A DNA stretch of 64,000 nt. It comes from Patescibacteria group bacterium. GTDB lineage: Bacteria; Patescibacteriota; Minisyncoccia; UBA6257; 2-01-FULL-56-20. Positions 11,344-64,000 of this stretch are shown in pieces. A model generated the notes under the pieces. The model saw only the letters and a list, made by a program, of their open reading frames with translations. It ran no database searches and was not told where the DNA came from. Numbering within the stretch: the stretch's first letter is position 1; the number at the start of each line of letters is the position of its first letter. Location: positions 3,931 through 67,930 of the forward strand of contig JANLHI010000022.1 of NCBI GenBank assembly GCA_024654525.1, read 5' to 3'. The translations under genes and the position numbers were made by a program.

Positions 11344-11674
11344 AGAATACATGTGGTATTCATAATTGTTAACGTACTGCGTACGACTCCCTTTATGAAG
11401 AATGATTTCCTATGGGGTCGCGCGTGCAACCCTCACAGCGTCTTACGACATTCATAATAAAGAGCCGTATAGAAATAATAGGAGTGCTTATAGAAAAGCG
11501 CAAACATGGAAACTGTGTGTATCTCGGATATCCTTTATAAATAGCTCATTACCGAACAAAAAAGCTATGTATAACAGCTGAAATGGCAAGCCGGCTAACC
11601 CATAAACATAGATTAGCCGACAAGGCATTATTTTCGAACATAATTCAGTTCTTCGACAGAGCGGTAACCGCTAT

Positions 11675-12604: not shown

Positions 12605-12740
12605 CCCCTTACAATCCTTATTGTACGCACCGCAAGGTGCTGCGTGAATCAACTTTGTTGATTTCGTAGGAAATTATTTCTTTACAAGAAGAGTTGCAAC
12701 GTTTAGTTCATTCAAAACTTATGAGTACTCCAAGTACCCA

Positions 12741-12774
12741 AGACGGGCATGCTATGGGCATGCGAAACGCTCGT
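12741..12774. repeat. Inverted repeat B (34 bp)
   Basis: Identical to the reverse complement of 11310..11343. Covers -13 to +21 of the metK start (ATG 12754). Confidence 0.9.
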
Positions 12775-28319: not shown

Positions 28320-28333
28320 ATCTGTTCTTAAAA

Positions 28334-28434
28334 CATCTCTCCCCGTGAAGGGCAGGTTCGCACGTTACCTGACGCAGGTACGTTGCGGGCGGATATCGGG
28401 CCAGTCCCTTGGCAATCCGCACTCTTGATGTGTA
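28334..28434 (-). ncRNA. SAM-I (S-box) riboswitch aptamer
   Basis: Minus-strand RNA reads ACACAUCAAGAG-UGCGGAUUGCCAAGGGACUGGCCCGAUAUCCGC-CCGCAAC..GAGAGAUGU. AUCAAGAG, GGGACUGGCCCGAU, GCAAC and the AGAUG P1 return match the S-box consensus. Promoter upstream and terminator downstream. Confidence 0.8.
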
Positions 28435-28449: not shown

Positions 28450-28477
28450 ACTATACTCTCCCCGAAACCGCTGTCAA
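28450..28477 (-). promoter_or_regulatory. Sigma70-like promoter (TTGACA-16-TATAGT) driving the riboswitch
   Basis: -35 at 28477..28472, -10 at 28455..28450. Confidence 0.55.
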
Positions 28478-28500
28478 ACCCTCAAACACTTTATCATTTT

Positions 28501-28534
28501 CTCATAGGACAATTCCATAGAATTGTCCTATGAG
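28501..28534. promoter_or_regulatory. Palindrome CTCATAGGACAATTC-CATA-GAATTGTCCTATGAG, a third copy of the ArsR-1 box family (core ACAATTCnATAGAATTGT)
   Basis: Shares half-sites and 4-nt spacing with the palindromes at 59467..59504 and 59815..59844. Confidence 0.5.
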
Positions 28535-28565
28535 AAAGCAAAACATATAATTACATCCCCCCTTC

Positions 28566-31587: not shown

Positions 31588-31632
31588 TGTTGTAAGTTGC
31601 AGGTTATTTTTTATTGGTCATAGGTCAGTTTT

Positions 31633-34670: not shown

Positions 34671-34691
34671 GGGTAGTTATTCTTTCTCGCA

Positions 34692-35672
34692 TTACGATAA
34701 TGAAACGCTTCTTGAATATTTTTTGAGATTGTTGCGTATTCTCTCTTTAATAGGCAAGGAAAAATCAACCGCACACGTTGCGCCGGTAAGTTGTTCGTAA
34801 ATCCTCATATACCGATGCGCAAGTTCCACCACCTTGTCTTTTGGAGCTTCGGGCAATGTGTTGTCGCCATATGGATCCGAATTCTCCTTAAACCATAAAC
34901 GAAGAAACTCTTTATCGAAATACTCGGGCTCTTCCCCTTTTGAAAATCGCTCATCATAGCTCCCTAATTGCCAATACCGCGAAGAATCGGGGGTGTGGAT
35001 TTCATCAATAAGTGTCACCTGTCCTCTTTCATCAACCCCAAATTCATACTTTGTATCCACAAGAATCAATCCGCGCTCACGAGAAACCTCGGTACCATGA
35101 ATAAAAAGCGCAAGTGCCGCCCGCTCGATTTCCCTCCAACGATCTTCCGGCACGATACCGCGCTCTATAATTTGTTGCGGTGTTATCGCCTCGTCATGCA
35201 CATCGGATTTTATAGTCGGCGTAATAACCGGAGCATCAAGCTTTTGATTCTTCTTTAACCCTTCGGGAAGCGTGAAACTGCCAAAATCACGTTCACCCGC
35301 TTGGTACTTCGTCCATAACGATGTACTCGTGACACCGGTAATATATCCGCGTACCACGACTTCAATCGGCACCACTTCATATTTTCTTACTACAATAACG
35401 TTCGGGTCCGGCGTGTCTATCATATGATTCGCGATAATGCCTTTTGTTTTCTCAAACCAAAAAGAGGCGATCGCTACGAGCGATTGCCCCTTGAACGGTA
35501 TGAGCGCAAGATTTCTATCAAACGCGGAATACCGATCGGTGGTAATAATAATCAATGTATCCCCCTGATCATAAATATCGCGTACCTTACCCGCACGTCG
35601 CACACCAAGTTCTGAAAAATCCGTACTCTCAATCACATAGTCCGCATGCGCGGTGATTGTATCGTAGTCCAT
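34692..35672 (-). CDS. purC: SAICAR synthetase (long form)
   Basis: GKVRDIYD..LIIITTDRYSAFD. 326 aa. Confidence 0.85.
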   Translation of the reverse strand: MDYDTITAHADYVIESTDFSELGVRRAGKVRDIYDQGDTLIIITTDRYSAFDRNLALIPFKGQSLVAIASFWFEKTKGIIANHMIDTPDPNVIVVRKYEVVPIEVVVRGYITGVTSTSLWTKYQAGERDFGSFTLPEGLKKNQKLDAPVITPTIKSDVHDEAITPQQIIERGIVPEDRWREIERAALALFIHGTEVSRERGLILVDTKYEFGVDERGQVTLIDEIHTPDSSRYWQLGSYDERFSKGEEPEYFDKEFLRLWFKENSDPYGDNTLPEAPKDKVVELAHRYMRIYEQLTGATCAVDFSLPIKERIRNNLKKYSRSVSLS

Positions 35673-43629: not shown

Positions 43630-43667
43630 TTCATATTCAAGTATTTTGCAAAATACTTGAATATGAA
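43630..43667. promoter_or_regulatory. 38-bp perfect palindrome TTCATATTCAAGTATTTTGCAAAATACTTGAATATGAA (ArsR-2 box, downstream copy)
   Basis: Shares a 28-bp core with 44020..44057. Lies upstream of the DEAD-box helicase. Confidence 0.6.
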
Positions 43668-43717
43668 ATATACCCCAATGTTGATCCTTAAAACTCCTAC
43701 AGGGGATCACACAATAG

Positions 43718-43990
43718 TTATGTAAGCGAACGGCAAAAAGAGAACACCGCCTCCGCTCGAAGAGTAAGTTTGTGGCGCACGGTCGTACCTTCGTACCGCT
43801 TTATCACCAACCCCGCAATTGCAAGTTTTCGAATATGATCGGATGCATTCTGATAATTCATACGAAGCTCATCGGCAATCTCCTCCACGGAAAGCTCCGG
43901 CTTTTTCTTCAAAAGTTCGAATATTTCCAATCGTCGATGATTCGCAAATCCTTTAATAATTCGCTCAAGTCTTCGTGAAGTATTATTCAT
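43718..43990 (-). CDS. ArsR/SmtB-family transcriptional regulator (paralog 2)
   Basis: HTH LSVEEIADELRMNYQNASDHIRKLAIAGLV. RBS AAGGGAG before ATG 43990. Confidence 0.8.
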   Translation of the reverse strand: MNNTSRRLERIIKGFANHRRLEIFELLKKKPELSVEEIADELRMNYQNASDHIRKLAIAGLVIKRYEGTTVRHKLTLRAEAVFSFCRSLT

Positions 43991-44019
43991 ATCTCCCTTG
44001 CTATTATTACACACTGACT

Positions 44020-44057
44020 CCACTATTCAAGTATTTTGCAAAATACTTGAATAGTGG
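44020..44057. promoter_or_regulatory. 38-bp perfect palindrome CCACTATTCAAGTATTTTGCAAAATACTTGAATAGTGG (ArsR-2 box, promoter copy)
   Basis: Lies 30 bp upstream of the arsR-2 start, between divergent genes. Confidence 0.6.
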
Positions 44058-49998: not shown

Positions 49999-50027
49999 AT
50001 TATAGCATTAAAATGCTATAATGTCAA
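49999..50027 (-). promoter_or_regulatory. Consensus sigma70 promoter TTGACA-17-TATAAT. The spacer contains a TATAGCATT..AATGCTATA palindrome.
   Basis: Exact -35 and -10 hexamers. Lies 50 nt upstream of ATG 49942. Confidence 0.5.
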
Positions 50028-52985: not shown

Positions 52986-54134
52986 TTATCCCTCCCCCGG
53001 ACCGCCAAGCGTAATTTTTTCCGGTTCGAAAAATACTCTCCTGTCGCCCTCTTCCACCACACCCACTTCGGCAAGGTCGTAGCCCGATTTTTTTCCGAGC
53101 GCAAGCGTACGTGCCACTTCTTCCTTTGGTACAAACACATAATACCCCCCGCCCCAGTTGAATGTTTTGAGACAATCTTTCATTTCAATTCCTAGTCCGC
53201 GCACAAATTGCATTACCGGCGGTACGGGAACCCATGAGTGAATACGATAACTATATTGCCGCTTATCGAATGCGAGCTTTCCCACGCCATCACCCGTACC
53301 GGGAAGGAGCGCGTGAATATTCACCTTCTCCGTAAGAAGCGTTTCGATGAGCGCCACGTACGAACGCGTGGGGATAAGAATTTCTTCGCCAAGAGTCTTC
53401 CCATTCGGAAGCTTGGTTAAAAACTGATCCGGCAACTCGAGCGCTTTTTTAATAAGGAGTGAGATGCCGTTTGAGTGTACGCCGGATGATGTTGCGGCAA
53501 TAATCCGGTCTCCGGGCGCGAGCTTCTTCCCGGTCACAAGATTTTCCTTCGGCGCAATAATTCCTGTGGTACACCCCGAAAGAGTTGCCACCATTTTCAC
53601 GGGAGGTTTTGGATTCACAATGTATTTCACCGAGGCGGACTCCCCCGCAGGCATTGCCATCCCGACTTCTTCACAAATTTTCAAAAATCCCGCCGCCAGA
53701 TCACGCGCACGATTTTCATCTGAGTACCACGCACTGTCAGACGCTTCAATCTGATCGGTAAACACCACAGGAAGCGCACCCTGCGCAATCACATCGTTTA
53801 CCGTCATCATGGCGGTATCTATCGCAATACTGTCGTAATAAGTTCGAGCACCAGCTCGCCCTGAGCCTGTCGAAGGGTTGCCCCCAAACTGATACATCCA
53901 TTCTGCAATCCAGTTTTTGTTTCCCAAATCTTCCTGCGTCTGACACCAGCGATGCGATTCGTTTCCGCGATATTCAAACACTGCGCCGTGTGCACCAGTC
54001 GCTTCTTCGGTAATAAACACTCCTCGCTTTTCAGGAAATTTCAGCGTCTTCCGACCCGCAGAAACCATATACTGCTTGAAGGGCTCCATTTGAACATAAT
54101 CAACGCCCGCTTTGGCATATTCGCTTTGAGACAT
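52986..54134 (-). CDS. purM: PurM-like protein (probable AIR synthetase, atypical, with an about 60-aa insertion)
   Basis: YAKAGVD, VNDV, GESAS, SSGVHSNGISL, ALLPGTGDG, FNWGGG. Confidence 0.65.
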   Translation of the reverse strand: MSQSEYAKAGVDYVQMEPFKQYMVSAGRKTLKFPEKRGVFITEEATGAHGAVFEYRGNESHRWCQTQEDLGNKNWIAEWMYQFGGNPSTGSGRAGARTYYDSIAIDTAMMTVNDVIAQGALPVVFTDQIEASDSAWYSDENRARDLAAGFLKICEEVGMAMPAGESASVKYIVNPKPPVKMVATLSGCTTGIIAPKENLVTGKKLAPGDRIIAATSSGVHSNGISLLIKKALELPDQFLTKLPNGKTLGEEILIPTRSYVALIETLLTEKVNIHALLPGTGDGVGKLAFDKRQYSYRIHSWVPVPPVMQFVRGLGIEMKDCLKTFNWGGGYYVFVPKEEVARTLALGKKSGYDLAEVGVVEEGDRRVFFEPEKITLGGPGEG

Positions 54135-54152
54135 CTAATTATGAATAATAAA

Positions 54153-54734
54153 TTACACTTTAGAAAAATCCGATAATAACTTTCGTAATTCCTGCTCGGC
54201 TGTCGCGGAATCCTTAAACGTCTTATAACCATACCGCTCTGCTTCTTTTTTGTACATTACCCTTTCGCAATAATAAAACAACTCCGCCTCCTTACGTTGT
54301 AATGCTTCCGTTTTTCCCCAACGAGGACGCTCTCTATTTCTCCGAAAAACCTCTTCAACAGAGTTACCAAGAAGAAACGCTCCTCCAAAGTCAAAATTGC
54401 GTTTTGCAAACTCGGGAATGATATTTACACCTTCAACGATCGCGCCCTTTCCCGATTGGCGCACACTTTGAATTTTTTGCAGTACGGTAGGTAAAAATGC
54501 CTCCGATTGGCGTTTAATATTTTTCCAATTCTCCTCACATGAAACCGTGCGTAAATATTCTTCTTCGTCTTTATCCCAAAAAAAATTAGCCCACGGTTTA
54601 AGCTTTTCATCTTTCTTCATATCTCCGCGAAACGCGTCTATATCAATATGCACAAGCCCGAATTCCGCCGCAAGCTTTGCCGCGAGGAAACTTTTTCCCG
54701 CCGTTGGAATACCACCGATAAATGCGAAAGGCAT
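54153..54734 (-). CDS. P-loop NTPase / kinase embedded in the pur cluster
   Basis: GIPTAGKSFLA Walker A. Confidence 0.5.
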   Translation of the reverse strand: MPFAFIGGIPTAGKSFLAAKLAAEFGLVHIDIDAFRGDMKKDEKLKPWANFFWDKDEEEYLRTVSCEENWKNIKRQSEAFLPTVLQKIQSVRQSGKGAIVEGVNIIPEFAKRNFDFGGAFLLGNSVEEVFRRNRERPRWGKTEALQRKEAELFYYCERVMYKKEAERYGYKTFKDSATAEQELRKLLSDFSKV

Positions 54735-54803
54735 AAGAAAATAGAAAGTAGAAAGATGGAAAATAGAATCGATATGCTACTGGGTCATTGTACATCCGTG
54801 TTT

Positions 54804-54843
54804 AAAAAAACGGAAAGCGACGCGAGGAATCCCCTTGCGCCGC
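54804..54843 (-). terminator. Intrinsic terminator after purE (GC-rich hairpin followed by U7)
   Basis: GCGGCGCAAGG..CCUCGCGUCGC then UUUCCGUUUUUUU. Confidence 0.45.
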
Positions 54844-54895
54844 TACTTATATGGAGAAAAAAACAAATAGTCAACTTACTTATTGAATCTTCTCT

Positions 54896-54927
54896 CTATT
54901 CTCTTATTCGCGCAAATAAGAGAATAG
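54896..54927. repeat. Palindrome CTATTCTCTTATT-cgcgc-AAATAAGAGAATAG (13-5-13)
   Basis: Same family as 48195..48224. Lies just 3' of purE. Confidence 0.5.
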
Positions 54928-54936
54928 TTCTTAAAT

Positions 54937-55458
54937 TTATTTTTCTCTCAAATACTTTTCGAATCCGATTTTCTCCAGTTTCTGGGCTTTCGCAATGAGC
55001 GACTTCTCTAATCCTTTCTTGTAGTCCAAAAATTTCTTTTGTAATTTTTTGTCGCTTATCGCAAGCATCTGTATTGCAAGAAGTCCCGCATTCTTCGCGC
55101 CATCAATCGCAACAGTGGCGACGGGAACTCCGGGAGGCATTTGCACTGTGGCATAGAGCGCATCAACACCATGTAAAGCGCCAGACCGAATAGGCACTCC
55201 AATAATTGGTAGCGTGGTGTGTGCCGCCATTGCCCCCGCAAGATGCGCCGCACTTCCCGCGCCCGCGATGATAACTTTCAAACCACGCGCAACGGCGGTC
55301 TGCGCATACTCTGCCGCCCGCGCAGGAAAACGATGGGCGGAAACAACCGTAATTTCATATATCACACCGAATTCTTCCAAAACTTTCGCCCCGTCTTGCA
55401 TCACGGGCAAATCCGAGTCACTTCCCATAATTATTCCAACTTGTGGATTGTGAGTCAT
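54937..55458 (-). CDS. purE: N5-CAIR mutase / AIR carboxylase
   Basis: VGIIMGSDSDLPVM, AGSAAHLAG. 173 aa. No purK in the window. Confidence 0.9.
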   Translation of the reverse strand: MTHNPQVGIIMGSDSDLPVMQDGAKVLEEFGVIYEITVVSAHRFPARAAEYAQTAVARGLKVIIAGAGSAAHLAGAMAAHTTLPIIGVPIRSGALHGVDALYATVQMPPGVPVATVAIDGAKNAGLLAIQMLAISDKKLQKKFLDYKKGLEKSLIAKAQKLEKIGFEKYLREK

Positions 55459-55479
55459 ACGTTATTGATCATAAGTTAA

Positions 55480-56322
55480 TCAATACTTACCCATAAGATA
55501 ATCCATTTTCATTACTTTGAATATAGCATCAAAATTCCCAAGAATCTTCTTTTCTCCTTGGGAAAACGTCACAATAAAATGCACTTGCACATTCGGAAGA
55601 TCTGAATCTTCAATATCTACAAGTCGAGCTTCCACGGTAAATGCGCACGTTTCAGGAATTACGAAACCTTCTGTTGCATTGATATAAAGACGCTGAAGCC
55701 TAATCGACTCTCGCACTTCTTCAAACGAATCACCGGGAAAATAATTATTTCCGTATGAGCCGGGGATGGTATGCCCCAAATTGATTTTTAAGGAGTCGTG
55801 CGTCGTGGTCATCCAACGTATTTTCTTCCCATGATCTGCAAAAAGTTTTATTGCTGTTTCATACAGCGTAGAAAAGCTCATCCCCACCTGCGCATGTTCC
55901 GCCGCCTTGTATACCACGTTATATATGTCAGTGAGATGTTGTCGCACCTGTCTGTCACCTCCCCCATACACAGTACACCCCACATCGCCAATCATCCCGG
56001 TGGCTCGGTCTATCGGTGAGGCATAGAGAATCCCAACCGTATCACCATTGAAACGATTATTTTCTGTCGGAAAAAATTGCGGACTTCGCAGTGTTTCAAA
56101 TTGAAGTCTTGTATATGGTTTTTTCTCCCCAAAGAGCACTGCCACTCCTCCCGGCGGAGGGTCGTACCAACCCATAGGATAAAATTCTTTGTGCGCTGAA
56201 AGATTAGCGAGGATTCTATCACAGACTTCCGCTTCCGAAATTCCTTCATGATTTTCAAGTGCCTTGGCAATAATTATTCCCGCAGCTTCCCGAGATTTAA
56301 CAATGGTTCCTATGCAATTCAT
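55480..56322 (-). CDS. Pita-bread-fold (M24-like) metallopeptidase-like protein
   Basis: Putative metal ligands: D..D 11 aa apart, then H (GHTIPG), E (FTVE), E. 280 aa. Weak. Confidence 0.35.
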   Translation of the reverse strand: MNCIGTIVKSREAAGIIIAKALENHEGISEAEVCDRILANLSAHKEFYPMGWYDPPPGGVAVLFGEKKPYTRLQFETLRSPQFFPTENNRFNGDTVGILYASPIDRATGMIGDVGCTVYGGGDRQVRQHLTDIYNVVYKAAEHAQVGMSFSTLYETAIKLFADHGKKIRWMTTTHDSLKINLGHTIPGSYGNNYFPGDSFEEVRESIRLQRLYINATEGFVIPETCAFTVEARLVDIEDSDLPNVQVHFIVTFSQGEKKILGNFDAIFKVMKMDYLMGKY

Positions 56323-56766
56323 TTTTCCAAAAAATACTTCTTTATTTTATTATAGTGCACCGAACTCCTTAAAAGTACAAGAGACCTGCGGATTAATCCG
56401 AAAGGTCTCTTATGCTGAAATTTCGGGGCTAAGCCCCGTGAATCTTGCCACCGTCTCAATGAGACGGGTGGTAACGACCTCCATTCTTCCCACATCATTG
56501 AAAACAATGATGTCGAATATTGGTCGCCGTAATCGGGGCGGAAAATCGGGTATCGGATCACTCCGAAGAATAGAGTTGATCACCACCGCGTAGCGATACG
56601 CGATCCGCAGTCTCCTCTGTCGCTCTTTCTTCGGCGCACGAATGAAGATGCGAAGCATCATTCCTCTCTTTGTTAAATGTGCGTTGTTTACTAACGCCTC
56701 TAGCGTAACGCCGTTATACACCATTTGTCAATCTCACCGCGCACCCAATGACTGACAATCAATAGA

Positions 56767-58092
56767 TTACGGTCTGTAACGCAATGATTTTGCACCAATA
56801 TCTTTTCGGTAATACATTCCCTCAAAATGAATCTTCCCCACTGCCTGATATGCCTTGTCGAGTGCTTCTTTCAAAGTCTTGCCTATGGCAGTAACACCCA
56901 ATACTCGCCCACCAGACGTAACTAATTTTTCACCCTCTAGTTTCGTTCCCGCGTGAAAGACCACTACACCTGGTATTTTCTCAGCTTCTTCGATACCAGT
57001 GATTTCTTTTCCTTTTTCATAACTACCTGGATACCCTTTACTGCAAAGAATAACACAGCACGCAAACCCAGGGTTCCACTCTATATTCACATTCTCAAGT
57101 GTCCCTTCAATGCACGCCTCGACGATATCCAATAAATCGGTTTTAAGGAGTCGCATATAACTCTGCGTTTCCGGGTCTCCAAAACGAGCATTAAACTCGA
57201 GCGTCTTTACACCACCCGAACTCATCTTGAGACCCGGATACAAACACCCTGCGAACGGATATCCCTTCGCTTTCATTCCTATGAGCGCAGGCGCGACGAT
57301 TCGCTTTTCAAATTCGACGAGCATCTCCGCCGTCACCCACGGCAAAGGCGCGATGGTACCCATGCCTCCCGTGTTCGATCCCGTATCATTCTCGCCTATG
57401 GGCTTATGATCCTGTGCCGTCGGGAAAAGCGAATACGAAACACCATCCGAAAACACATGAAGTGAAATTTCCTGCCCATCCAAATACTCCTCAATTACCA
57501 CTTCCGCTCCCGCCGCACCAAACATTTTCTCCGCCATTATTCTTTGTAAAGCTTCTTCCGCCTCGCTCATCGTTTCACACACAAAAACACCTTTTCCTAA
57601 CGCGAGTCCGCTCGCCTTCACCACAATCGGCGCGCTCCGCGATGCGAGATATTTTTTTGCGGCTTCATAATCGGAAAAAGTTTTAAACTCCGCCGTAGGA
57701 ATCCCCGCCTCTGCCATAAATTGCTTCGAAAATACTTTTGACGCCTCGATTTCCGCCGCGGCTTTTGTGGGACCAAAGGCGGGAATGCCTTTTGCCCGAA
57801 GCACGTCTATAAGCCCCAGCGCAAGCGCATCGTCGGGACCCACCACCACGCAATCCACTCTTCTCTCCACCGCAAACGCGGTGAGTTTCTCGATATACGT
57901 CGCAACAATAGGCACATTCTCGCCCAACAATTTCGTGCCGCCGTTCCCCGGCGCAATATAAAGCTTCTCCACGCGCAACGATTGCGCAAGTTTCCACGCA
58001 AGCGCGTGTTCGCGCCCGCCAGAACCAACAACTAATATTGTTTTTCCACTACTCATTATTTTGGTTGTATCCCCAACTTTCCGGCAACCCAC
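56767..58092 (-). CDS. purD: Phosphoribosylamine-glycine ligase
   Basis: ATP-grasp GARS. Probable start MSSGKTILVVGSGGREHA at 58056. Confidence 0.9.
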   Translation of the reverse strand: MGCRKVGDTTKIMSSGKTILVVGSGGREHALAWKLAQSLRVEKLYIAPGNGGTKLLGENVPIVATYIEKLTAFAVERRVDCVVVGPDDALALGLIDVLRAKGIPAFGPTKAAAEIEASKVFSKQFMAEAGIPTAEFKTFSDYEAAKKYLASRSAPIVVKASGLALGKGVFVCETMSEAEEALQRIMAEKMFGAAGAEVVIEEYLDGQEISLHVFSDGVSYSLFPTAQDHKPIGENDTGSNTGGMGTIAPLPWVTAEMLVEFEKRIVAPALIGMKAKGYPFAGCLYPGLKMSSGGVKTLEFNARFGDPETQSYMRLLKTDLLDIVEACIEGTLENVNIEWNPGFACCVILCSKGYPGSYEKGKEITGIEEAEKIPGVVVFHAGTKLEGEKLVTSGGRVLGVTAIGKTLKEALDKAYQAVGKIHFEGMYYRKDIGAKSLRYRP

Positions 58093-58691
58093 AATATAAA
58101 ATCCAATTTTTTAGAATCAGGAATTGGACAATCACTAAACTTTTTATTGAAAACCAATAACATATTTTTACATCTCCCATCAATCCGCATCTGCTTATAA
58201 AAATCTTTGAGTGTTGTGTAATAACTCAAGTACTTTTCAATCCTCTTATATTTTGACGGATAACCGAAACCAAATATATGAGATATCTTTGAATCATAAA
58301 TGGGATATTCTGGATTTATCATATTTAGTAGTTTTGTAGTAAATGAGAACTGGACAGCATTACGTCCTTGCACATCTTCAAAACTCTGTAATTCTAGCAA
58401 TATTTTTGCTACATCTTTATCGGTAAAAGATTCTTTTTTCCGAAAATACTGCATCAACTCAAAATACTCATGTTTGAATTCAGGTGATAACCCAGCTCTA
58501 TCTAATCCATAATATGAACGAAATACAAATTGAAAAACAAAATTATTTCTTACATCTCCCTTTTTGAACTCCGCCGTTAAGAATTTATACACATGCACAT
58601 CTTCGCACTCAATCAATGCAACAATTCTATGAATATTATTACTTATAAACAAAATTATTTCCTCTAGACTTCGCATATAAGTTTTCTTCAT
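58056..58691 (-). CDS. Hypothetical 211-aa protein translationally coupled between purN and purD
   Basis: ATG at 58691 lies 1 nt after the purN stop. Its stop overlaps the purD ATG as TAATG. Confidence 0.5.
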   Translation of the reverse strand: MKKTYMRSLEEIILFISNNIHRIVALIECEDVHVYKFLTAEFKKGDVRNNFVFQFVFRSYYGLDRAGLSPEFKHEYFELMQYFRKKESFTDKDVAKILLELQSFEDVQGRNAVQFSFTTKLLNMINPEYPIYDSKISHIFGFGYPSKYKRIEKYLSYYTTLKDFYKQMRIDGRCKNMLLVFNKKFSDCPIPDSKKLDFILWVAGKLGIQPK

Positions 58692-58692
58692 A

Positions 58693-59466
58693 TTACCCGT
58701 TCGGAAACATCTCGACTGCCCTTCGCTTTGCTTCTTCAAGAATCTGCTCCTCGCCGGGGAGAATGAGCGGCTTTCCTCTCACAATTTCTTTTACCGCGCC
58801 TTTCGCAAACATTTCAATCGTTTCAATCTGCACCTTATGCTCTACCGGCAATGCGCGGGCGGCAAGCGTTTCTGGCGTATCATCTTCTAAAATAGAAACT
58901 TGCTTTGCGTGTAATACTGCGCCTTTGTCATATTCGGTAGTCACGCGATGCGCCGTCATCTCTGTCCAAAAGTCCCGCTGCACCGCACGAACAAAAAATA
59001 ATCGTGCCGCATGCACACGCTTCCCATACATTCCTTTTCCACCGAAATCCGGCCGCCCCGGGTCAAGCGGGCCCGGATGTTGGTTTACAATCCTTCCCTC
59101 AAACGCCGCGATTACATTTTCCGGAGTTTTCACAAGCCAACCATATTGCCCCACAAAATCTACTCCACGCGCACGACATTCTTTGATAATCGACTCACCA
59201 AACTCATCACGCGAAGGAAACGCTTTTGGTGAAAGCACTATCACATCTTTTTTTGGCACGCCTGCGCGTTTCACGCGTTCGATACCGCCCGCCTCGGGTT
59301 TGCTCGCAATCACACACGCCACTTCCACGCCCGAAAGCCGTCCCATCTGTGTCGCGCGAATAATCGCCTCCGCAGTAGTCCCCCCGCCGGAAAGTAAAAT
59401 CGCAATTCTCATTATATTAAAATTCATTCTACCTTTTCTCATCCAAAAACTCGACAAGCACGCCAT
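58693..59466 (-). CDS. purN: Phosphoribosylglycinamide formyltransferase
   Basis: MRIAILLSGGGTTAEAII, NQHPGPL. Probable start at 59412 or 59427. Confidence 0.85.
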   Translation of the reverse strand: MACLSSFWMRKGRMNFNIMRIAILLSGGGTTAEAIIRATQMGRLSGVEVACVIASKPEAGGIERVKRAGVPKKDVIVLSPKAFPSRDEFGESIIKECRARGVDFVGQYGWLVKTPENVIAAFEGRIVNQHPGPLDPGRPDFGGKGMYGKRVHAARLFFVRAVQRDFWTEMTAHRVTTEYDKGAVLHAKQVSILEDDTPETLAARALPVEHKVQIETIEMFAKGAVKEIVRGKPLILPGEEQILEEAKRRAVEMFPNG

Positions 59467-59504
59467 CCTCTATGGAACAATTCTATAGAATTGTTCCATA
59501 GAGG
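59467..59504. promoter_or_regulatory. 38-bp perfect palindrome CCTCTATGGAACAATTC-TATA-GAATTGTTCCATAGAGG (ArsR-1 box), immediately upstream of purN
   Basis: Perfect reverse-complement symmetry. Confidence 0.6.
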
Positions 59505-59509
59505 AAACC

Positions 59510-59797
59510 CTATACCAGTTTGATTAAAATTCTGAAATCTTCGGGCATGTTGGCGCCCAGAGAATAAAAAACGTGTCCGTTCATTCCTTTTGCATCCACT
59601 ACATCAAGTCGTTTAAGAATAGCGAGATGGTTTGAGGTCGCTTTAAGCGAAATTTCCAACTCATCCGCAATCTGTCCCACGTGCATCGCCGGCCCTTCCG
59701 AAAGCATCACTATAATTTTTAAGCGATTCACGTTCGCCAGCGCCCGAAACACCGTAGTCCAACGTTTATGATTCCGATTTCCTTTCGCCATGCCCAT
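59510..59797 (-). CDS. ArsR/SmtB-family transcriptional regulator (paralog 1) inside the pur operon
   Basis: HTH VGQIADELEISLKATSNHLAILKRLDVV. A TATAAT at 59810..59805 sits 7 nt before ATG 59797, so the transcript may be leaderless. Confidence 0.8.
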   Translation of the reverse strand: MGMAKGNRNHKRWTTVFRALANVNRLKIIVMLSEGPAMHVGQIADELEISLKATSNHLAILKRLDVVDAKGMNGHVFYSLGANMPEDFRILIKLV

Positions 59798-59814
59798 TCC
59801 ATATATTATATCGC

Positions 59815-59844
59815 ATTGGAACAATTCTATAGAATTGTTCCAAT
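59815..59844. promoter_or_regulatory. 30-bp perfect palindrome ATTGGAACAATTC-TATA-GAATTGTTCCAAT (ArsR-1 box) overlapping the arsR-1 promoter
   Basis: Abuts the -10 element. Confidence 0.6.
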
Positions 59845-59954
59845 AAAAAAATATTACCAGCCGTTATAGCCCTTGTGTTCTTTTTTTATAATTATTTTTG
59901 CTTTCGATTCCGACCTTTATTTTTTCAATACAGGAACCGGCATTTTCAACGTTC

Positions 59955-61382
59955 TCAACTCGCAAACAAGCTTCCCTGACGTTCATGCATCACTTCCATA
60001 ATACGGACTTCGCGAATACGTTCGCGGATATCTATCGAATATCCGCCCGTGAAGCACGAAAGATTGAACATGGTACGCGGAAGACGTGTTGCGCCCACCA
60101 ATCCACTAAGAGAAAGATAATACAGAGATGTTGCACCAAGATACCTTCCGATTTCTTCAACCGATTTATCCGTCGCGATTAAATCTTTTTGAGCCGGCGT
60201 ATCTATTCCATAAAAGTCAGGGAATAAAATCGGCGGAGAACTTATCAAGAAATGCACTTCACTCGCACCCGCCTCAAAAAGCGTTTTGATAATCCTACGC
60301 GATGTGGTGCCTCTCACAATCGAATCATCAATTAACACTACGCGCTTTCCCTTCAATACTTCCGGTAACGGCACCAATTTCATTTTCACGCCTAAATCGC
60401 GCGTATGCGAATCCGGTTCAATAAACGTGCGGTGAATATAGCGGTTTTTAAGGAGTGCGAGCTCAAGAGGAATTCCACTTTCCTGCGCATACCCAACCGC
60501 GACGTGAATCGCAGTCTCCGGAACCGGTACCACAATATCCGCGTCCGGATGATATTCTTTTGCAAGCTGAACACCGCAATTGCGACGCACTTCATAAACC
60601 GAACGTCCAAGAAACGTGCTGTCGGGACGGGCAAAATACACAAATTCAAAAATATCAAATTTTTGATCGGGCGGTACGATTTGCTCCGTTTGAATTCCCG
60701 ACTTATCCACGGTCACCATCTCACCGGGATTCACCTCACGCACAAATTCAGCTCCTATTGCGTGGAGTGCGCATGTCTCCGACGCAAATACTGTCCCGTT
60801 ACTATTAATCTTTCCCATCACAAGCGGACGAATACCGCACCCGTCACGCACCGCAACAAGGGAATCCCTTGTCATCGCCACCACCGAAAACGCACCGGTA
60901 AAAAGCGGGAACGCCTGACGCACCGCTTCACGCAACGTGCTTCCTTTTTTGAGATAATACCCCACCGCCTCCGCCATCAATTCTGAATCGTTTTTCCCTT
61001 CGACAGAGACTCCATTTGCACTTAAAAATTCTTCAAGTGCAACGGTACTCGGAAGATTCCCGTTATGCGCGAACGCAAGCGTATCGTCATACGCTTTTAC
61101 CGGCTGATTATGAAATGCATCGGTACCCTTCGAAGTCGAATAGCGAACATGTCCTATTGCACAATATCCTACAAGCGCACGAATATCTTCTTCGGCAAAC
61201 GCTTGTGCAACAAGTCCTCTCTTTCTGCAAAATCGGATTTGAGACCCGTCACTCGCCGCAATGCCCGCCCCCTCCTGTCCGCGATGCTGTAAAGAAAAAA
61301 GCCCATAGAATGCAAGTCGGCTTACGTCGAGTCCTTCGCCGAAAACACCAAACACACCGCATTTCTCATTCAACTCACGCAT
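59955..61382 (-). CDS. purF: Amidophosphoribosyltransferase with short propeptide
   Basis: MRELNEKCGVFGVFG: catalytic Cys after a propeptide, as in B. subtilis PurF. PRTase motifs. Confidence 0.9.
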   Translation of the reverse strand: MRELNEKCGVFGVFGEGLDVSRLAFYGLFSLQHRGQEGAGIAASDGSQIRFCRKRGLVAQAFAEEDIRALVGYCAIGHVRYSTSKGTDAFHNQPVKAYDDTLAFAHNGNLPSTVALEEFLSANGVSVEGKNDSELMAEAVGYYLKKGSTLREAVRQAFPLFTGAFSVVAMTRDSLVAVRDGCGIRPLVMGKINSNGTVFASETCALHAIGAEFVREVNPGEMVTVDKSGIQTEQIVPPDQKFDIFEFVYFARPDSTFLGRSVYEVRRNCGVQLAKEYHPDADIVVPVPETAIHVAVGYAQESGIPLELALLKNRYIHRTFIEPDSHTRDLGVKMKLVPLPEVLKGKRVVLIDDSIVRGTTSRRIIKTLFEAGASEVHFLISSPPILFPDFYGIDTPAQKDLIATDKSVEEIGRYLGATSLYYLSLSGLVGATRLPRTMFNLSCFTGGYSIDIRERIREVRIMEVMHERQGSLFAS

Positions 61383-61387
61383 GATTG

Positions 61388-62158
61388 TTATTTAAAATAA
61401 GAAACTGCATTTTTGAAAAGTTTGAGGCCGGGACCGTCCGTAGGAATTCTTTTTTTATTTCTTGACGATTGCTCCTTAAGATATGGCCAATGTGGTAACT
61501 GTGTAAAAAACTGTGCGCGTTCTGGATGAGGCATCATTCCCAATATTCTACCATTGCGTGCGAGAACACCCGCGATGTTTTTAACCGATCCGTTTGGATT
61601 TGCGGGTAAATTCTCGTGCTCACATATTTCCCCCTTTATATAGGTAAATGCGATTGCGTGATTCTTCTCAAGATACGCAAGTGTTTCTGCATCCGCGACA
61701 AATTTTCCTTCGCCATGAGCAATCGGGAGCATTGCGTGTTGTACACCGCGAAGCCAAGGGCTCTCTCCCCGCACTTCGACATCCACCCATCTCACTATAT
61801 ACCGCGCGGAATCGTTATAGGTGAGTGCCCCCGGAAGAAGTCCTGTATTCGTCAAAATTTGAAACCCGTTGCAAATCCCTATTCCCAACTTATCCGCAGA
61901 AAAGAAATTTTCGATTTCCTGTGCAAAATGATTTTTTATTTTGTGTGCATATGCCTTTCCCGAACCTGTGTCGTCTCCGTAAGAAAATCCTCCCGGCATC
62001 GCGAGAATTTTATATGCTTTAAGCGAAATAAGTCCGTCCACAATATCATTGATATGCACGATATCCGCTTTCGCACCGGCCCGCTCGAACGCGACTTTTG
62101 TTTCTTCTTCGCAATTCAAGCCATATCCGGAAAAAATTATAACTTTTGGTTTTTGCAT
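61388..62158 (-). CDS. purQ: FGAM synthase, glutaminase subunit
   Basis: GICNGFQ, HGEGKF, MPHPER. Confidence 0.9.
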   Translation of the reverse strand: MQKPKVIIFSGYGLNCEEETKVAFERAGAKADIVHINDIVDGLISLKAYKILAMPGGFSYGDDTGSGKAYAHKIKNHFAQEIENFFSADKLGIGICNGFQILTNTGLLPGALTYNDSARYIVRWVDVEVRGESPWLRGVQHAMLPIAHGEGKFVADAETLAYLEKNHAIAFTYIKGEICEHENLPANPNGSVKNIAGVLARNGRILGMMPHPERAQFFTQLPHWPYLKEQSSRNKKRIPTDGPGLKLFKNAVSYFK

Positions 62159-62191
62159 ATAGGTTATTGACTACCGTTCATATGGCATAAA

Positions 62192-64000
62192 TTAATAATT
62201 TTTAAATGTCCCTCGATATGCTTCAAGCGCACTCTTTATATTAATCCGTACCGCACGCGCACCATCCCATCCTTTAATATGCACGACTCCATCATGTGCT
62301 ACCGTGCCAATGCGCATACATGCATTTCCCCGCATAAGCGCTTCAAACTCCTTGCATTTTTTCGGATCCACACTTACCACTATCCGTCCCTGCGATTCAG
62401 AAAAAAGCGCGAGATCATCACGAGTATGATTTCCCGGAACATTCCTTAAATCTATATCCGCGCCAAGCATTCCTCCCATCGCGCTTTTCATAAGTGCGAC
62501 CGCAAACCCCCCGCGCCCCACACTTACCGCCGATGCCACAAATCCTCGCGCAAGCGCACGCGCCATTGCGCGATATAATTTCCCGTTTTTCTTCGCATCA
62601 ACGCGTGGCACACTATTCCCCATACAATCCTTTCCTATGCGCTCGGACTGCATAACCGCATATTCCGTTCCGCCGATTTCATCATTCGTTTCTCCTAAAA
62701 TATAAATCGCATCTCCGGATATTTTAAAGTCAGAGGTAATGCATTTTGTGCTATCAGACACAATACCGATTGCCGAAATAAGAAGCGTGGGAGGAACCGA
62801 AATAGAAACAGGTTTTCCTTCGGCATCAAACCCTTTGAAATCATTAAACATACTGTCCTTTCCCGAAATGAACGGGGTGCCGTACGCAACCGCATAGTCA
62901 TAACATGCATGTACGGCATCTTTCAGTTGCGCAAGACGCACCGGATTATGCGAGTCGCACCAGCAAAAATTATCCAAAATTGCAATCCTGTCGGGATCGG
63001 CTCCACCCACCACCGCGGTGCGCACCGCCGTATCAATCGCACATGCCGCCATGTCGTATGCATTAATTTCCGAATACGTGGGATACAATCCCTGCGAAAG
63101 CACCACTGCCTGTTTTGAATCAAGTCTTGGACGCGTCACAGTCGCATCCACATTCACACGCCCGCGTCCCGCGAATGGTTTTATCACCGATCCTCCCTGC
63201 ACCTCGTGGTCGTACTGGCTCGAGATATGCGCAAAACTCGCGATATTCGGACGCGCAAGCATTTCGAGAATCGTTGCATTAAATGCACCGGAAGATTCTT
63301 TTGGAGGCTCACTACGACGAATATGCGCCACACTCGACATCATGTCGCGCCGCACCCATCCTTCATGGAGAAAATCCATACTAATATCCATTATTTTTTT
63401 TCCATCATGCTCCACCACGCACCGCCCCGAATCCGTAAACTCGCCAACAATCGTCGCCTCCACGCCGCGCCTTCGAAACAACGTCACAAGCTCTTTTAAT
63501 TTTTCCTTCGGTACCGCAAGCGTCATTCTTTCCTGCGACTCTGAAATCCAAATTTCCCACGGCGCAAGTCCGGGATATTTCAGAGGCACCTTATCAAGAG
63601 CCACTTTACATCCGCCCGACTCTTTCGCCATCTCAGCAATTGAGCATGAGATCCCTCCCGCGCCGTTATCAGTAATACTCGAATATAATCCTTTATCGCG
63701 CGCTTCCTTCACCAATACATCGGAAAGTTTTTTCTGCGTAATAGGGTCGCCAATTTGCACCGCCATCGCGGGACTCCCCGCGTCGAGCGCGACGGACGAG
63801 AACGTCGCGCCATGAATTCCATCGAGTCCCACACGATTCCCCGCAATTACAATATAATCCCCCGACCGCGCCCGCTTCTCATATAATTTGCGGGATATCC
63901 CCCGTGAACCCGAATGGCTTTTACGGGGAATCAATCCCACGGTTCCCACAAATACTCCCGGCTTCGCACGATACCGCGGGTCAAAGAACACAAATCCCTG
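62192..64000 (-). CDS. purL: FGAM synthase II (PurM-like domains). N-terminus beyond the window end.
   Basis: Runs off the window edge. Paired with purQ. Confidence 0.85.
   Translation of the reverse strand, partial: QGFVFFDPRYRAKPGVFVGTVGLIPRKSHSGSRGISRKLYEKRARSGDYIVIAGNRVGLDGIHGATFSSVALDAGSPAMAVQIGDPITQKKLSDVLVKEARDKGLYSSITDNGAGGISCSIAEMAKESGGCKVALDKVPLKYPGLAPWEIWISESQERMTLAVPKEKLKELVTLFRRRGVEATIVGEFTDSGRCVVEHDGKKIMDISMDFLHEGWVRRDMMSSVAHIRRSEPPKESSGAFNATILEMLARPNIASFAHISSQYDHEVQGGSVIKPFAGRGRVNVDATVTRPRLDSKQAVVLSQGLYPTYSEINAYDMAACAIDTAVRTAVVGGADPDRIAILDNFCWCDSHNPVRLAQLKDAVHACYDYAVAYGTPFISGKDSMFNDFKGFDAEGKPVSISVPPTLLISAIGIVSDSTKCITSDFKISGDAIYILGETNDEIGGTEYAVMQSERIGKDCMGNSVPRVDAKKNGKLYRAMARALARGFVASAVSVGRGGFAVALMKSAMGGMLGADIDLRNVPGNHTRDDLALFSESQGRIVVSVDPKKCKEFEALMRGNACMRIGTVAHDGVVHIKGWDGARAVRINIKSALEAYRGTFKNY

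What the first reader, a model, noticed from the sequence alone, without database searches (positions are those of the whole stretch)
59467..59844. ArsR-family regulator embedded in the pur operon, flanked on both sides by perfect palindromes, with a third box at the SAM-riboswitch locus
A 95-aa ArsR/SmtB protein sits between purF and purN. A 30-bp perfect palindrome overlaps its own -10, which suggests autoregulation and a leaderless start. A 38-bp perfect palindrome with the same core, GGAACAATTC-TATA-GAATTGTTCC, lies between its stop and purN. A variant (ACAATTC-CATA-GAATTGT) lies 25 bp upstream of the -35 of the SAM-I riboswitch promoter at 28501..28534. This suggests a small regulon linking purine and one-carbon steps (purN, purD, downstream genes) with a SAM-sensing locus. 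Perfect palindromes of this length are unusually long for operators.
Basis: partly seen in the sequence, partly recalled or inferred. Interest (0 to 1): 0.6.

Follow-up and report, generated by a model that had tools for sequence, protein, structure and literature searches.

The report
Palindrome-bracketed ArsR regulator cassette in CPR bacteria
A tiny DNA-binding regulator gene sits between two copies of its own 30-base palindromic binding site, a gene-plus-sites unit found throughout the ultra-small Patescibacteria (CPR) that looks self-regulating rather than a purine-pathway switch.

Summary
On the minus strand the order is purF, a 30-bp perfect palindrome (P1), a 93-95-aa ArsR/SmtB gene, a 40-bp perfect palindrome (P2), then purN. 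A third 18-4-18 copy (P3) lies between the purH stop and the promoter of a sub-threshold SAM-I aptamer. The purine/one-carbon/SAM regulon reading is not supported. The protein and its operator (CATWGR-ACAATTC-YATR-GAATTGT-YCWATG) form a Patescibacteria-wide unit. In 80 protein-anchored metagenome loci, 75/78 have the site upstream, 70/77 downstream and 67/75 both. Upstream sites are asymmetric, with the core lying between a -35 and a -10, which fits autorepression. Downstream sites are symmetric, abut the stop codon and are often extended into longer hairpins. A second, paralogous ArsR gene in the same window (43630-44057) is bracketed by a different 38-bp palindrome, so the pairs are cognate. 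Neighbouring genes are heterogeneous, and only a close relative keeps the purF-arsR-purN position. Nucleotide similarity between cassettes stops at the palindromes, and I found one clean presence/absence case, which hints at cassette-like mobility. The protein has no Cys or His sensor ligands and is closest to HlyU. I found no publication on it. The role of the 3' site (insulator, loop or cruciform) is unresolved.

The parts
59815..59844 (.). P1: 30-bp perfect palindrome, the upstream operator of the ArsR-like gene
   Evidence: It is conserved as a 34-bp palindrome at the same place in the relative L118. Family-wide, an upstream site is present in 75/78 loci.
59805..59810 (-). Putative -10 box (TATAAT) of the arsR promoter, 4 nt downstream of P1. 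No good -35 is present, because P1 occupies that region.
   Evidence: Read from the sequence. The same TATAAT lies at the same distance from the palindrome in L118. The strict two-hexamer scan finds no promoter here, so this is an inferred -10-only promoter.
59510..59797 (-). ArsR/SmtB-family winged-helix gene. The start is ATG 59797 (95 aa) or ATG 59791 (93 aa, as in the identical database protein P0001). It has no Cys and no His-rich alpha-5 site.
   Evidence: Pfam HTH_5 at E 1e-11. PDB sequence hits are HlyU, CzrA and SmtB. The AlphaFold model has pLDDT 87 with topology H-H-H-H-E-E-H. The top Foldseek hits are HlyU 4ooi/4k2e. The recognition helix S-x-K-A-T-S-N-H-L is invariant or nearly invariant across homologues.
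59466..59505 (.). P2: 40-bp perfect palindrome starting 4 nt after the arsR stop codon, the conserved 3' operator of the cassette
   Evidence: The RNA hairpin is -33 kcal/mol with no U tract. A downstream site is present in 70/77 family loci, with its modal centre 16.5 nt after the stop. The relative L118 has it with different but still complementary outer arms.
59426..59431 (-). Putative purN -10 box (TAGAAT), conserved in the relative. P2 ends 34 nt upstream of it.
   Evidence: Sequence comparison of the window and L118. Inferred, not tested.
28498..28537 (.). P3: solitary 18-4-18 inverted repeat (centre CATA) that matches the 30-bp consensus perfectly. It lies between the purH stop (28566) and the SAM-aptamer promoter.
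   Evidence: The RNA hairpin is -26.5 kcal/mol.
28450..28477 (-). Sigma-70-like promoter TTGACA-16-TATAGT in front of the SAM-I-like aptamer
   Evidence: 11 of 12 matches.
28330..28434 (-). Probable SAM-I riboswitch aptamer, below Rfam's gathering score. A terminator hairpin at 28319-28301 and a 112-aa ORF with no Pfam hit follow it.
   Evidence: 38.2 bits against 44.4; E 3.2e-7. (terminator). (no Pfam hit for the ORF).
43630..44057 (-). Second cassette of the same design. It holds a paralogous ArsR-like gene (43718-43990) between two 38-bp perfect palindromes, 44020-44057 upstream and 43630-43667 downstream, with a different core (AGTATTTTGCAAAATACT).
   Evidence: Homologues keep an upstream site plus a second site after the stop or inside the last codons. 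Their recognition helix differs from that of family 1.

Best explanation
Positions 59466-59844 form a self-contained cassette of operator, regulator gene and operator.

The gene encodes a minimal ArsR/SmtB-type winged-helix protein that is closest to HlyU and has no recognisable metal or thiol sensor residues. It most likely binds, as a dimer or a pair of dimers, the 30-bp 13-4-13 palindrome CATWGR-ACAATTC-YATR-GAATTGT-YCWATG.

P1 covers the -35 and spacer region of the gene's own promoter, which has only a -10 and a leaderless or at most 7-nt leader. Binding there would give negative autoregulation. This step is inferred and strongly supported by comparison.

P2 abuts the stop codon. It is the cassette's own second operator, not a purN operator. 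I think it most likely acts as a protein-reinforced transcription stop or insulator. The DNA-bound regulator, together with a stable hairpin or cruciform-prone palindrome, would uncouple the cassette from the operon it sits in. P2 may also cooperate with P1. This step is inferred and weakly supported.

P3 is a solitary copy of the symmetric, 3'-end type. It sits at the end of the purC-guaB-guaA-purB-purH gene run, upstream of the next transcription unit.

The cassette family is Patescibacteria-wide. Its place inside the pur operon is a lineage-specific location rather than evidence of a purine regulon.
For: 1. Motif enrichment. The bases outside the searched core are also conserved (A/T at +-13 in 90% of sites, G/C at +-10 in 84%), so the conservation is not forced by the search.

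2. Linkage of protein and site. Twenty of those motif-anchored loci carry a close homologue at E 1e-28 to 1e-35. In 80 protein-anchored metagenome loci the site is upstream in 75/78, downstream in 70/77 and on both sides in 67/75.

3. Two kinds of site. Upstream sites are asymmetric (cATTGAAC ... GTCCTATAAT or TATGAT), so the invariant core lies between a -35-like and a -10-like element. Downstream sites are symmetric (GTCATTGAAC ... GTTCAATGAC), with a median arm extension of 6 against 0 for upstream sites (Mann-Whitney p = 3e-7).

4. Cognate pairs. A paralogue in the same window is bracketed by a different palindrome. Three helix types go with three operator types.

5. P2 tracks the stop codon, not purN. 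In the relative L118 both palindromes are kept while the distance to the purN -10 changes from 34 to 57 nt.

6. Fold. The protein is ArsR/SmtB by Pfam, by PDB sequence search and by fold search.

7. Constraint. Amino-acid identity stays at 60-80% while 4-fold degenerate sites are saturated (0.26-0.34), which indicates strong purifying selection.
Against: - No binding or expression data exist. Every functional step is inferred.
- In the window P1 is symmetric and lies upstream of the -10, not around it as in most relatives. The strict promoter scan finds nothing in 59380-59980.
- The spacing of the two operators (308-410 bp) shows no helical phasing (vector strength 0.015 at 10.5 bp), which argues against a rigid loop.
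- The hairpins lack U tracts, so they are not canonical intrinsic terminators.
- Solitary sites show no preference for promoter-bearing intergenic regions. Of 51 symmetric solitary sites, 8 are in convergent and 3 in divergent regions. Their median distance is 63 nt to a gene end and 103 nt to a gene start. This fits a repeat or 3'-end element as well as an operator.
- No effector can be proposed, because the protein has no Cys and no His cluster.
Confidence: 0.55

Rival explanations
1. The ArsR protein is a dedicated repressor of a small purine, one-carbon and SAM regulon. P2 would be the operator of purN-purD, and P3 would regulate the SAM-riboswitch transcription unit.
For: - All three sites in the window lie in or beside pur gene clusters.
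- A relative has an additional site right after purN (L120 position 1639).
- In other lineages a related site lies just upstream of purQ (L058) and another upstream of folD (L069).
- A P-loop kinase-like gene found in the window's pur cluster is flanked by sites in L017.
Against: - The regulator and its sites occur in many loci with no pur genes nearby, and the flanking genes share no functional theme.
- P2 is positioned relative to the arsR stop, not the purN promoter.
- P2 and P3 are centred about 66 and 75 bp upstream of the inferred transcription starts, outside the core promoters.
- The purQ site in L058 has the arm type that goes with a different, family-2-like regulator.
- Only three sites occur in 64 kb, although the window holds about 12 pur and gua genes.
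Confidence: 0.12
2. The unit is primarily a small mobile, or at least recombinationally portable, cassette. Its ends are the palindromes, and solitary palindromes are gene-less derivatives comparable to solo or MITE-like copies. The regulator would mainly serve the element, for example by silencing or insulating itself. This overlaps with the best explanation and does not exclude it.
For: - Among 118 cassette pairs that have at least 80% nucleotide identity and at least 300 nt of flank, similarity ends 5-11 nt past the downstream core in 74 pairs. It rarely extends beyond either palindrome.
- Some pairs labelled as different CPR classes share 0.75-0.88 identity at 4-fold sites.
- One clean presence/absence case exists. 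A unit of about 423 bp is present in L130 and absent in L002, between flanks that are 92% identical. An approximately 85-bp version with one palindrome and the same ends occurs at L002 5680-5765.
- Copies occur in tandem and in arrays between small accessory genes (L152, L190).
- An 80-bp operator-promoter block is duplicated upstream of another gene.
- Seven of 15 indels between related loci start at a site.
Against: - No transposase or recombinase is consistently linked to the cassette.
- No homologue occurs in viral contigs, and only 4 motif hits were found there.
- No target-site duplication is evident in the single insertion case.
- Most pairs are anciently diverged, with saturated synonymous sites. 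The window's cassette has stayed between purF and purN since it split from a relative whose 4-fold identity is 0.39.
- Taxon labels of short MAG contigs may be wrong.
- The indel analysis is biased, because the loci were chosen around sites.
Confidence: 0.2
3. The palindromes work mainly through nucleic-acid structure. They could be RNA 3' hairpins (terminators or stabilisers), or DNA cruciforms that the HlyU-like protein suppresses or exploits, as reported for Vibrio HlyU. On this reading they are not simple steric operators.
For: - Palindromy extends beyond the conserved 30 bp far more often than chance allows. Of 123 sites, 21 have perfect arms extending at least 9 bp beyond the 18-bp core (a palindrome of 36 bp or more), against about 3 expected.
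- The outer arms of P2 differ between the window and its relative but remain complementary.
- The predicted hairpins are -17 to -33 kcal/mol with z-scores of -4 to -7.5.
- Symmetric sites cluster just after stop codons.
- The closest solved relative, HlyU, binds a palindrome that overlaps a cruciform-forming locus and attenuates the cruciform (PMC10325908).
Against: - Structure alone cannot explain an 18-bp core that is invariant across deep lineages, nor its co-variation with regulator paralogues.
- The hairpins have no U tracts.
- Upstream sites are mostly not palindromic in their arms.
- Perfect extensions could also arise mutationally, through template-switch correction of quasi-palindromes. 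That mechanism is established knowledge and was not tested here.
Confidence: 0.1

Closest known systems
Autoregulated ArsR/SmtB-family repressors (SmtB, CzrA, CadC)
   Same: - The same winged-helix fold and size.
- An imperfect or perfect palindromic operator of 26-30 bp (12-2-12 in SmtB and CzrA, from my own knowledge) placed over the regulator's own promoter.
- TGAAC/GTTCA-like half-site elements.
   Different: - None of the metal-binding ligand sets is present. The protein has no Cys, and its alpha-5 helix has no His.
- A second operator is obligatorily placed at the 3' end of the gene.
- The layout is 13-4-13.
- The operator sequence is essentially invariant across Saccharibacteria and Parcubacteria lineages.
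- No linked efflux or resistance gene is present.
HlyU (Vibrio), a non-metal-sensing ArsR/SmtB member
   Same: - It is the best sequence hit (E 3e-8) and the best structural hit (TM 0.75, 32% identity).
- It has no metal site.
- It binds a palindrome flanked by inverted repeats that overlaps a cruciform-forming locus (PMC10325908).
   Different: - HlyU activates transcription by relieving a cruciform and H-NS silencing at virulence loci.
- It is not reported to be bracketed by its own sites.
- HlyU has redox-relevant Cys residues (my own knowledge), whereas this protein has none.
- H-NS-type silencing in Patescibacteria is unknown.
NolR (Sinorhizobium), an effector-less ArsR-type global regulator
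   Same: - A small ArsR-fold dimer without a known ligand that binds palindromic operators at several promoters. It is a structural hit (4omy, 4omz). The regulon description comes from my own knowledge.
   Different: - The NolR operator is short and degenerate.
- It has no 3' operator and no cassette-like conservation.
Two-operator (looping or roadblock) autoregulation: lac O1/O2, gal OE/OI, E. coli purR intragenic operators, lambda OL-OR (my own knowledge)
   Same: - A regulator binds a promoter-proximal site and a second site a few hundred bp away, within or beyond the transcribed region.
   Different: - Here the second site is pinned to the stop codon of the regulator's own gene. In the paralogous family it can lie inside the last codons.
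- The two sites show no helical phasing.
REP/BIME elements with their RAYT gene (REPtrons) and Xer-dependent pdif modules (my own knowledge)
   Same: - A gene is flanked by copies of a short palindromic repeat that also occurs alone in intergenic regions.
- The modules are discrete, and their homology stops at the sites.
   Different: - The enclosed gene is a plain winged-helix DNA binder, not a HUH transposase.
- The site layout of 13-4-13 with a 4-bp centre does not fit the 11-6-11 of Xer sites.
- There are only a few copies per 10 kb near the gene, not hundreds per genome.

Membership tests
ArsR/SmtB family of transcription regulators | Winged helix-turn-helix domain matching Pfam HTH_5, with topology a1-a2-a3-aR-b1-b2-a5 | tested here: met
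   HTH_5 at E 1e-11, above the cut-off. The AlphaFold model has pLDDT 87 and topology H-H-H-H-E-E-H. The top 50 Foldseek hits are all ArsR/SmtB proteins.
ArsR/SmtB family of transcription regulators | Homodimer formed through the a1 and a5 helices | not tested
   Only a monomer was modelled. The dyad-symmetric operator is consistent with a dimer.
ArsR/SmtB family of transcription regulators | Palindromic operator overlapping the regulator's own promoter (autoregulation) | tested here: met
   For position only. An upstream site is present in 75/78 homologous loci, with its core between -35-like and -10-like arms. In the window P1 ends 4 nt before TATAAT. Binding itself is not testable with these tools.
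Metal- or thiol-sensing ArsR/SmtB subgroups (a3, a3N and a5 sites; BigR/SqrR/HlyU Cys pairs) | Ligand residues: the CXC motif in a3, N-terminal Cys, the Asp/His/His/Glu(His) set in a5, or a redox Cys pair | tested here: not met
   The 95-aa sequence has no Cys. Its only His residues are H10, H39, H57 (recognition helix) and H75 (wing). The a5 segment MPEDFRILIKLV has none.
HlyU-type cruciform-attenuating regulators | Binds a palindrome that overlaps a locus extruding a cruciform, and relieves repression | tested here: inconclusive
   HlyU is the closest solved relative. The sites are 30-40-bp perfect palindromes with AT-rich centres. The mechanism is taken from PMC10325908.
SAM-I riboswitch (Rfam RF00162), for the element next to P3 | Score at or above the family gathering threshold | tested here: not met
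   38.2 bits against 44.4. There is no hit in the gathering-mode scan. E is 3.2e-7 in the local scan, with a full-length match to positions 1-108. A promoter and a terminator flank it. It is probably a divergent member.
Rho-independent (intrinsic) terminator, for P2 and P3 | G+C-rich hairpin followed by a U tract | tested here: not met
   Stable hairpins are predicted, but the scan finds no terminator at either site. Only 12 of 123 sites across genomes have a T-rich tail.
Transposase-linked palindromic repeats (REP/RAYT) or MITEs | Associated transposase, terminal inverted repeats with a target-site duplication, and many dispersed copies | tested here: inconclusive
   No transposase is linked. 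There is one insertion/empty-site pair with no evident duplication. Solitary copies exist, at about 35 extra sites in 427 kb of flanking DNA.

The most novel reading that the evidence does not exclude
Patescibacteria carry families of portable regulator cassettes. Each is a sensor-less HlyU-like ArsR gene bracketed by its own palindromic site, and gene-less solo copies are scattered between genes. In these reduced genomes the protein-bound, cruciform- or hairpin-prone palindromes would act as movable transcriptional insulators or terminators and as boundaries for gene-cassette gain and loss. That would be a combined regulatory and recombinational punctuation system not described in other bacteria.
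Probability: 0.2. Interest if true: 0.85.

Novelty: new variant of a known kind. Interest (0 to 1): 0.62.

Why it matters
Patescibacteria (CPR) have very few regulators, and almost nothing is known about how they control transcription.

This finding gives a defined, highly conserved pair of protein and 30-bp operator, plus at least two paralogous pairs of the same design. The pair can be tested directly by EMSA or DAP-seq, and it could be used to read regulons from the thousands of available MAGs.

The obligatory second operator at the 3' end of the regulator's own gene is an unusual design. Conservation that stops exactly at the palindromes is also unusual. Together they bear on how operons are insulated and rearranged in minimal genomes.

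For this window, the practical message is that the ArsR gene inside the pur operon should not be annotated as a purine or metal regulator.

Tried and rejected
- **Metal or arsenic sensor.** Rejected. No Cys or His ligand set is present.
- **Canonical intrinsic terminators at P2 and P3.** Rejected. There are no U tracts.
- **Rigid DNA loop between P1 and P2.** Not supported. The spacing of 308-410 bp shows no 10-11-bp periodicity.
- **P2 as the purN operator.** Rejected. Its distance to the conserved purN -10 is not conserved, while its distance to the arsR stop is.
- **Rfam hits on the palindromes** (mir-1684, mir-2355 and similar). Spurious hairpin matches far below threshold.
- **Phage origin or vehicle.** There is no homologue in IMG/VR and only 4 motif hits.
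- **DNA-uptake sequence, dif, attC, lox or hix-type recombination sites.** Considered from memory only. Copy number per genome, the 4-bp centre and the arm sequences do not fit. Not formally tested.
- **A coherent regulon from genes next to solitary sites.** None emerged from clustering and Pfam scans.
- **Weaker sites in the window.** None with up to 9 mismatches to the 30-mer, apart from P1-P3.
- **Retrieving the source contig by exact-protein look-up.** Failed for P0001.
- **Literature.** None returned a description of this system.
Full report
**1. What is in the window**

All relevant genes are on the minus strand. In transcription order they are:
- purL and purQ
- purF (61382-59955)
- a 130-bp spacer
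- the ArsR-like ORF (59797 or 59791 to 59510)
- purN (about 59412-58693)
- an unannotated 227-aa ORF
- purD

P1 (59815-59844) is a 30-bp perfect palindrome. P2 (59466-59505) is a 40-bp perfect palindrome that starts 4 nt after the ArsR stop codon. They share the 24-mer GGAACAATTCTATAGAATTGTTCC, which occurs exactly twice in the window and never in 100 shuffles.

The core ACAATTC-N4-GAATTGT has a third exact copy at 28509-28526. That copy belongs to an 18-4-18 inverted repeat, P3 (28498-28537). P3 lies 28 nt after the purH stop and 23 bp before the -35 of a TTGACA-16-TATAGT promoter. That promoter precedes a SAM-I-like aptamer, which scores 38.2 bits. This is below Rfam's threshold of 44.4, although E is 3e-7 locally, and a terminator follows the aptamer.

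A census of all palindromes with arms of at least 11 nt gives eight in the window and none in shuffles. No further, weaker copies of the motif exist in the 64 kb.

**2. The protein**

The ORF matches Pfam HTH_5. Its nearest solved relatives by sequence are HlyU, CzrA and SmtB. An AlphaFold model built on 25 homologues (pLDDT 87) has the ArsR/SmtB topology, and its best Foldseek hits are V. cholerae HlyU, then CzrA, SmtB, CadC and NolR.

The protein has no cysteine and no histidine-rich alpha-5 helix, so none of the known metal or thiol sensor sites is present. An identical protein is on record as 'ArsR family transcriptional regulator [Patescibacteria group bacterium]' on a 75-kb contig. The window is therefore from a CPR bacterium. 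A paralogue's best hit suggests a position near Liptonbacteria.

**3. The motif is not local**

I scanned one genome per species with ACAATTCYATAGAATTGT. Several genomes contributed 4-6 loci each.

The bases outside the searched 18-mer are conserved as well. This gives a 30-bp consensus, CAT-WGR-ACAATTC-YATR-GAATTGT-YCW-ATG. The few hits in other phyla mostly lie inside long ORFs and look like chance.

Twenty motif-anchored loci carry a close homologue of the window protein right beside a site, and thirteen of them have exact sites on both sides of the gene.

**4. An independent, protein-anchored test**

I searched metagenome contigs with an alignment of the family and obtained 80 loci.
- A site with at most 2 core mismatches lies upstream of the gene in 75 of 78 assessable loci.
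- A site lies downstream in 70 of 77.
- Sites lie on both sides in 67 of 75.
- The downstream site's centre is most often 16.5 nt past the stop codon, which means the 30-bp site begins 1-2 nt after the stop.

The two sites differ in kind.
- Upstream sites are asymmetric. The left arm is cATTGAAC and the right arm is GTCCTATAAT, TATGAT or similar. The invariant core therefore occupies the spacer between a -35-like and a -10-like hexamer. In a subset the ATG follows the -10 by 7-9 nt, which suggests a leaderless mRNA.
- Downstream sites are symmetric (GTCATTGAAC ... GTTCAATGAC) and are often extended. The median arm extension is 6 against 0 for upstream sites (p = 3e-7).

This is the expected signature of a repressor that occludes its own promoter, plus a second site with a different role.

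**5. Cognate pairs**

The window holds a second ArsR-like gene (43718-43990, minus strand). It is only 26% identical to the first. It too is bracketed by perfect 38-bp palindromes (44020-44057 and 43630-43667), with a different core, AGTATTTTGCAAAATACT.

Its family is large, with 1848 hits. Four homologous loci keep the upstream site and a second site. The second site lies either after the stop (L123) or inside the last eight or so codons (L124-L126, and also L090).

A third group (L048, L090) pairs a different recognition helix with sites of the form TATTCT-AYAATTC-TATA-GAATTRT-AGAATA. Recognition helix and operator therefore co-vary. This is the best computational evidence available here that these proteins bind these palindromes.

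**6. Is it a purine, one-carbon and SAM regulon?**

A relative whose protein is 75% identical keeps the order purL-purQ-purF-arsR-purN and both palindromes, and has an extra site just after purN. Homologues at 59-67% identity sit next to VanY, an integrase, a metallo-beta-lactamase and an adenylate kinase, and they are still bracketed.

Genes next to solitary sites are heterogeneous. They include SecD, a PhoU-like protein, GNAT, DUF5671, HhH-GPD, FolD, a staphylococcal-type nuclease, TrmO, MazG, DUF559, LepA, rpsO and a cysteine-rich, CxxC-motif-bearing family of about 565 aa. The purQ site, however, has the arm type that goes with the other regulator group.

P2 keeps its distance to the arsR stop but not to the conserved purN -10 (34 nt here, 57 nt in the relative). 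P2 and P3 are centred about 66 and 75 bp upstream of the inferred transcription starts, outside the core promoters. I therefore regard the cassette's place in the pur operon as a lineage-specific location and not as a sign of a purine regulon.

**7. What the 3' and solitary sites might do**

Several simple models fail.
- The two operators are 308-410 bp apart with no helical periodicity.
- The hairpins are stable, at -17 to -33 kcal/mol, but they lack U tracts.
- In several loci the next gene is convergent, so the downstream site cannot be that gene's operator.

Among 69 solitary sites, 51 are symmetric. These lie somewhat closer to gene ends (median 63 nt) than to gene starts (median 103 nt), and 8 of them lie between convergent genes against 3 between divergent ones.

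Palindromy extends beyond the conserved 30 bp much more often than chance allows. Of 123 sites, 21 are perfect palindromes of at least 36 bp, against about 3 expected. The outer arms of P2 differ between the window and its relative yet remain complementary. This points either to selection on a hairpin or cruciform, or to mutational correction of quasi-palindromes.

The nearest characterised relative, HlyU, binds a palindrome overlapping a cruciform-forming locus and attenuates the cruciform (PMC10325908). My preferred reading is that the 3'-type sites are protein-reinforced stops or insulators. I hold this with low confidence. Cooperative binding with the promoter site and a cruciform-based mechanism both remain open.

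**8. Cassette-like behaviour**

Between loci with unrelated flanks, nucleotide similarity of 80-95% is confined to the unit of palindrome, gene and palindrome. In 74 of 118 qualifying pairs the alignment ends 5-11 nt past the downstream core.

Most family pairs are ancient, with 4-fold-site identity of 0.26-0.34 at 60-80% amino-acid identity. This indicates very strong purifying selection. Some pairs from differently labelled CPR classes nevertheless share 0.75-0.88 identity at 4-fold sites.

Further observations point the same way.
- One clean presence/absence polymorphism of a unit of about 423 bp was found, between flanks 92% identical (L130 against L002).
- An approximately 85-bp 'solo' version with the same ends occurs elsewhere in the same genome.
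- Tandem regulators and arrays of sites between small accessory genes occur.

Against a true mobile element:
- no recombinase is linked to the cassette;
- no homologue occurs in viral contigs;
- no target duplication is evident;
- the window's cassette has stayed in place since it split from its relative (4-fold identity 0.39).

I therefore treat mobility as a supported hint and not as a conclusion.

**9. Novelty**

They covered the motif strings and combinations of CPR, Patescibacteria, Saccharibacteria and Parcubacteria with ArsR and related terms, and none returned a description of this system. The protein is a member of a known family. The new elements are:
- the CPR-wide invariant operator;
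- the obligatory bracketing of the regulator gene by its own operator, seen in at least two paralogous families;
- the conservation pattern bounded by the palindromes.

I file it as a new variant of a known kind.

**10. Verdict**

The regulator-operator pairing and the autoregulation are well supported by comparative evidence. I put protein-site binding at about 0.85 and the full best explanation at about 0.55. The specific purine, one-carbon and SAM regulon is unlikely, at about 0.12. Interest is 0.62. The system is directly testable, widespread and architecturally unusual, in a lineage where regulation is essentially unexplored, but every functional step is still inferred.

Noticed in passing
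window 43630-44057: A second ArsR-like gene (43718-43990, minus strand) is bracketed by its own pair of 38-bp perfect palindromes, 44020-44057 and 43630-43667, with core AGTATTTTGCAAAATACT. It has the same design as the finding but a different specificity. Its family has more than 1800 homologues in Parcubacteria-type MAGs.
   Followed up: yes
window 54896-54927: A 13-6-13 palindrome, CTATTCTCTTATTCGCGCAAATAAGAGAATAG, lies between purE and a P-loop kinase-like gene. It has the same length and outer arms (CTATTC ... GAATAG) as the family-2 operator, and by eye about 21 of 32 positions are identical. It may be another operator inside the pur cluster.
   Followed up: partly
window 11310-11370 and 12714-12774: A 61-nt inverted repeat (85% identical) places the same upstream region and the same first codons (..DGHAMGMRNAR..) in front of metK and of the divergent gene 11429->10389. 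It has no Rfam match. It may be a shared leader or regulatory element.
   Followed up: partly
window 28330-28434 (minus): A SAM-I-like aptamer scores below Rfam's gathering score (38.2 against 44.4 bits). It has its own consensus promoter and terminator and precedes a 112-aa ORF with no Pfam hit. That is an unusual downstream gene for a SAM riboswitch.
   Followed up: partly
window 28566-35672 and 52986-64000: A Patescibacteria contig carries a nearly complete de novo purine set plus guaA and guaB (purC, guaB, guaA, purB, purH; purM, purE, purD, purN, purF, purQ, purL). From my own knowledge this is uncommon for the group. The clusters are interrupted by non-pur ORFs: a 227-aa ORF at 58056-58739, an M24-like ORF at 55480-56322 and a kinase-like ORF at 54153-54734.
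   Followed up: no
window 49999-50022: A 24-bp perfect-arm palindrome, ATTATAGCATTAAAATGCTATAAT, lies in an intergenic gap. Its function is unknown.
   Followed up: no
L130 1006-1431 vs L002 6117; L002 5680-5765: A unit of about 423 bp (cassette plus ends containing AAAAAAT(T)AGGCG) is present in L130 and absent at L002 6117, between flanks 92% identical. An approximately 85-bp gene-less version with one palindrome and the same ends occurs elsewhere in the L002 genome (5680-5765).
   Followed up: partly
L174 9809-9832; L101 448-465: Two further, different perfect palindromes occur in CPR loci. CCAGGTTAACACGTGTTAACCTGG lies upstream of a gene of the cysteine-rich, CxxC-motif-bearing family of about 565 aa. 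CTAATTCGCGCGAATTAG lies upstream of a third ArsR-like paralogue. This suggests a wider set of such regulator-palindrome pairs.
   Followed up: no
L003, L065, L089 (Anaerolineales MAG JASEHI01): Three copies of the same core lie within a longer shared repeat (..TTTGGCGTAGGACAATTCTATAGAATTGTCCCACAAGATACCGC..) in a Chloroflexota MAG. This is possibly an unrelated repeat family or contamination.
   Followed up: no
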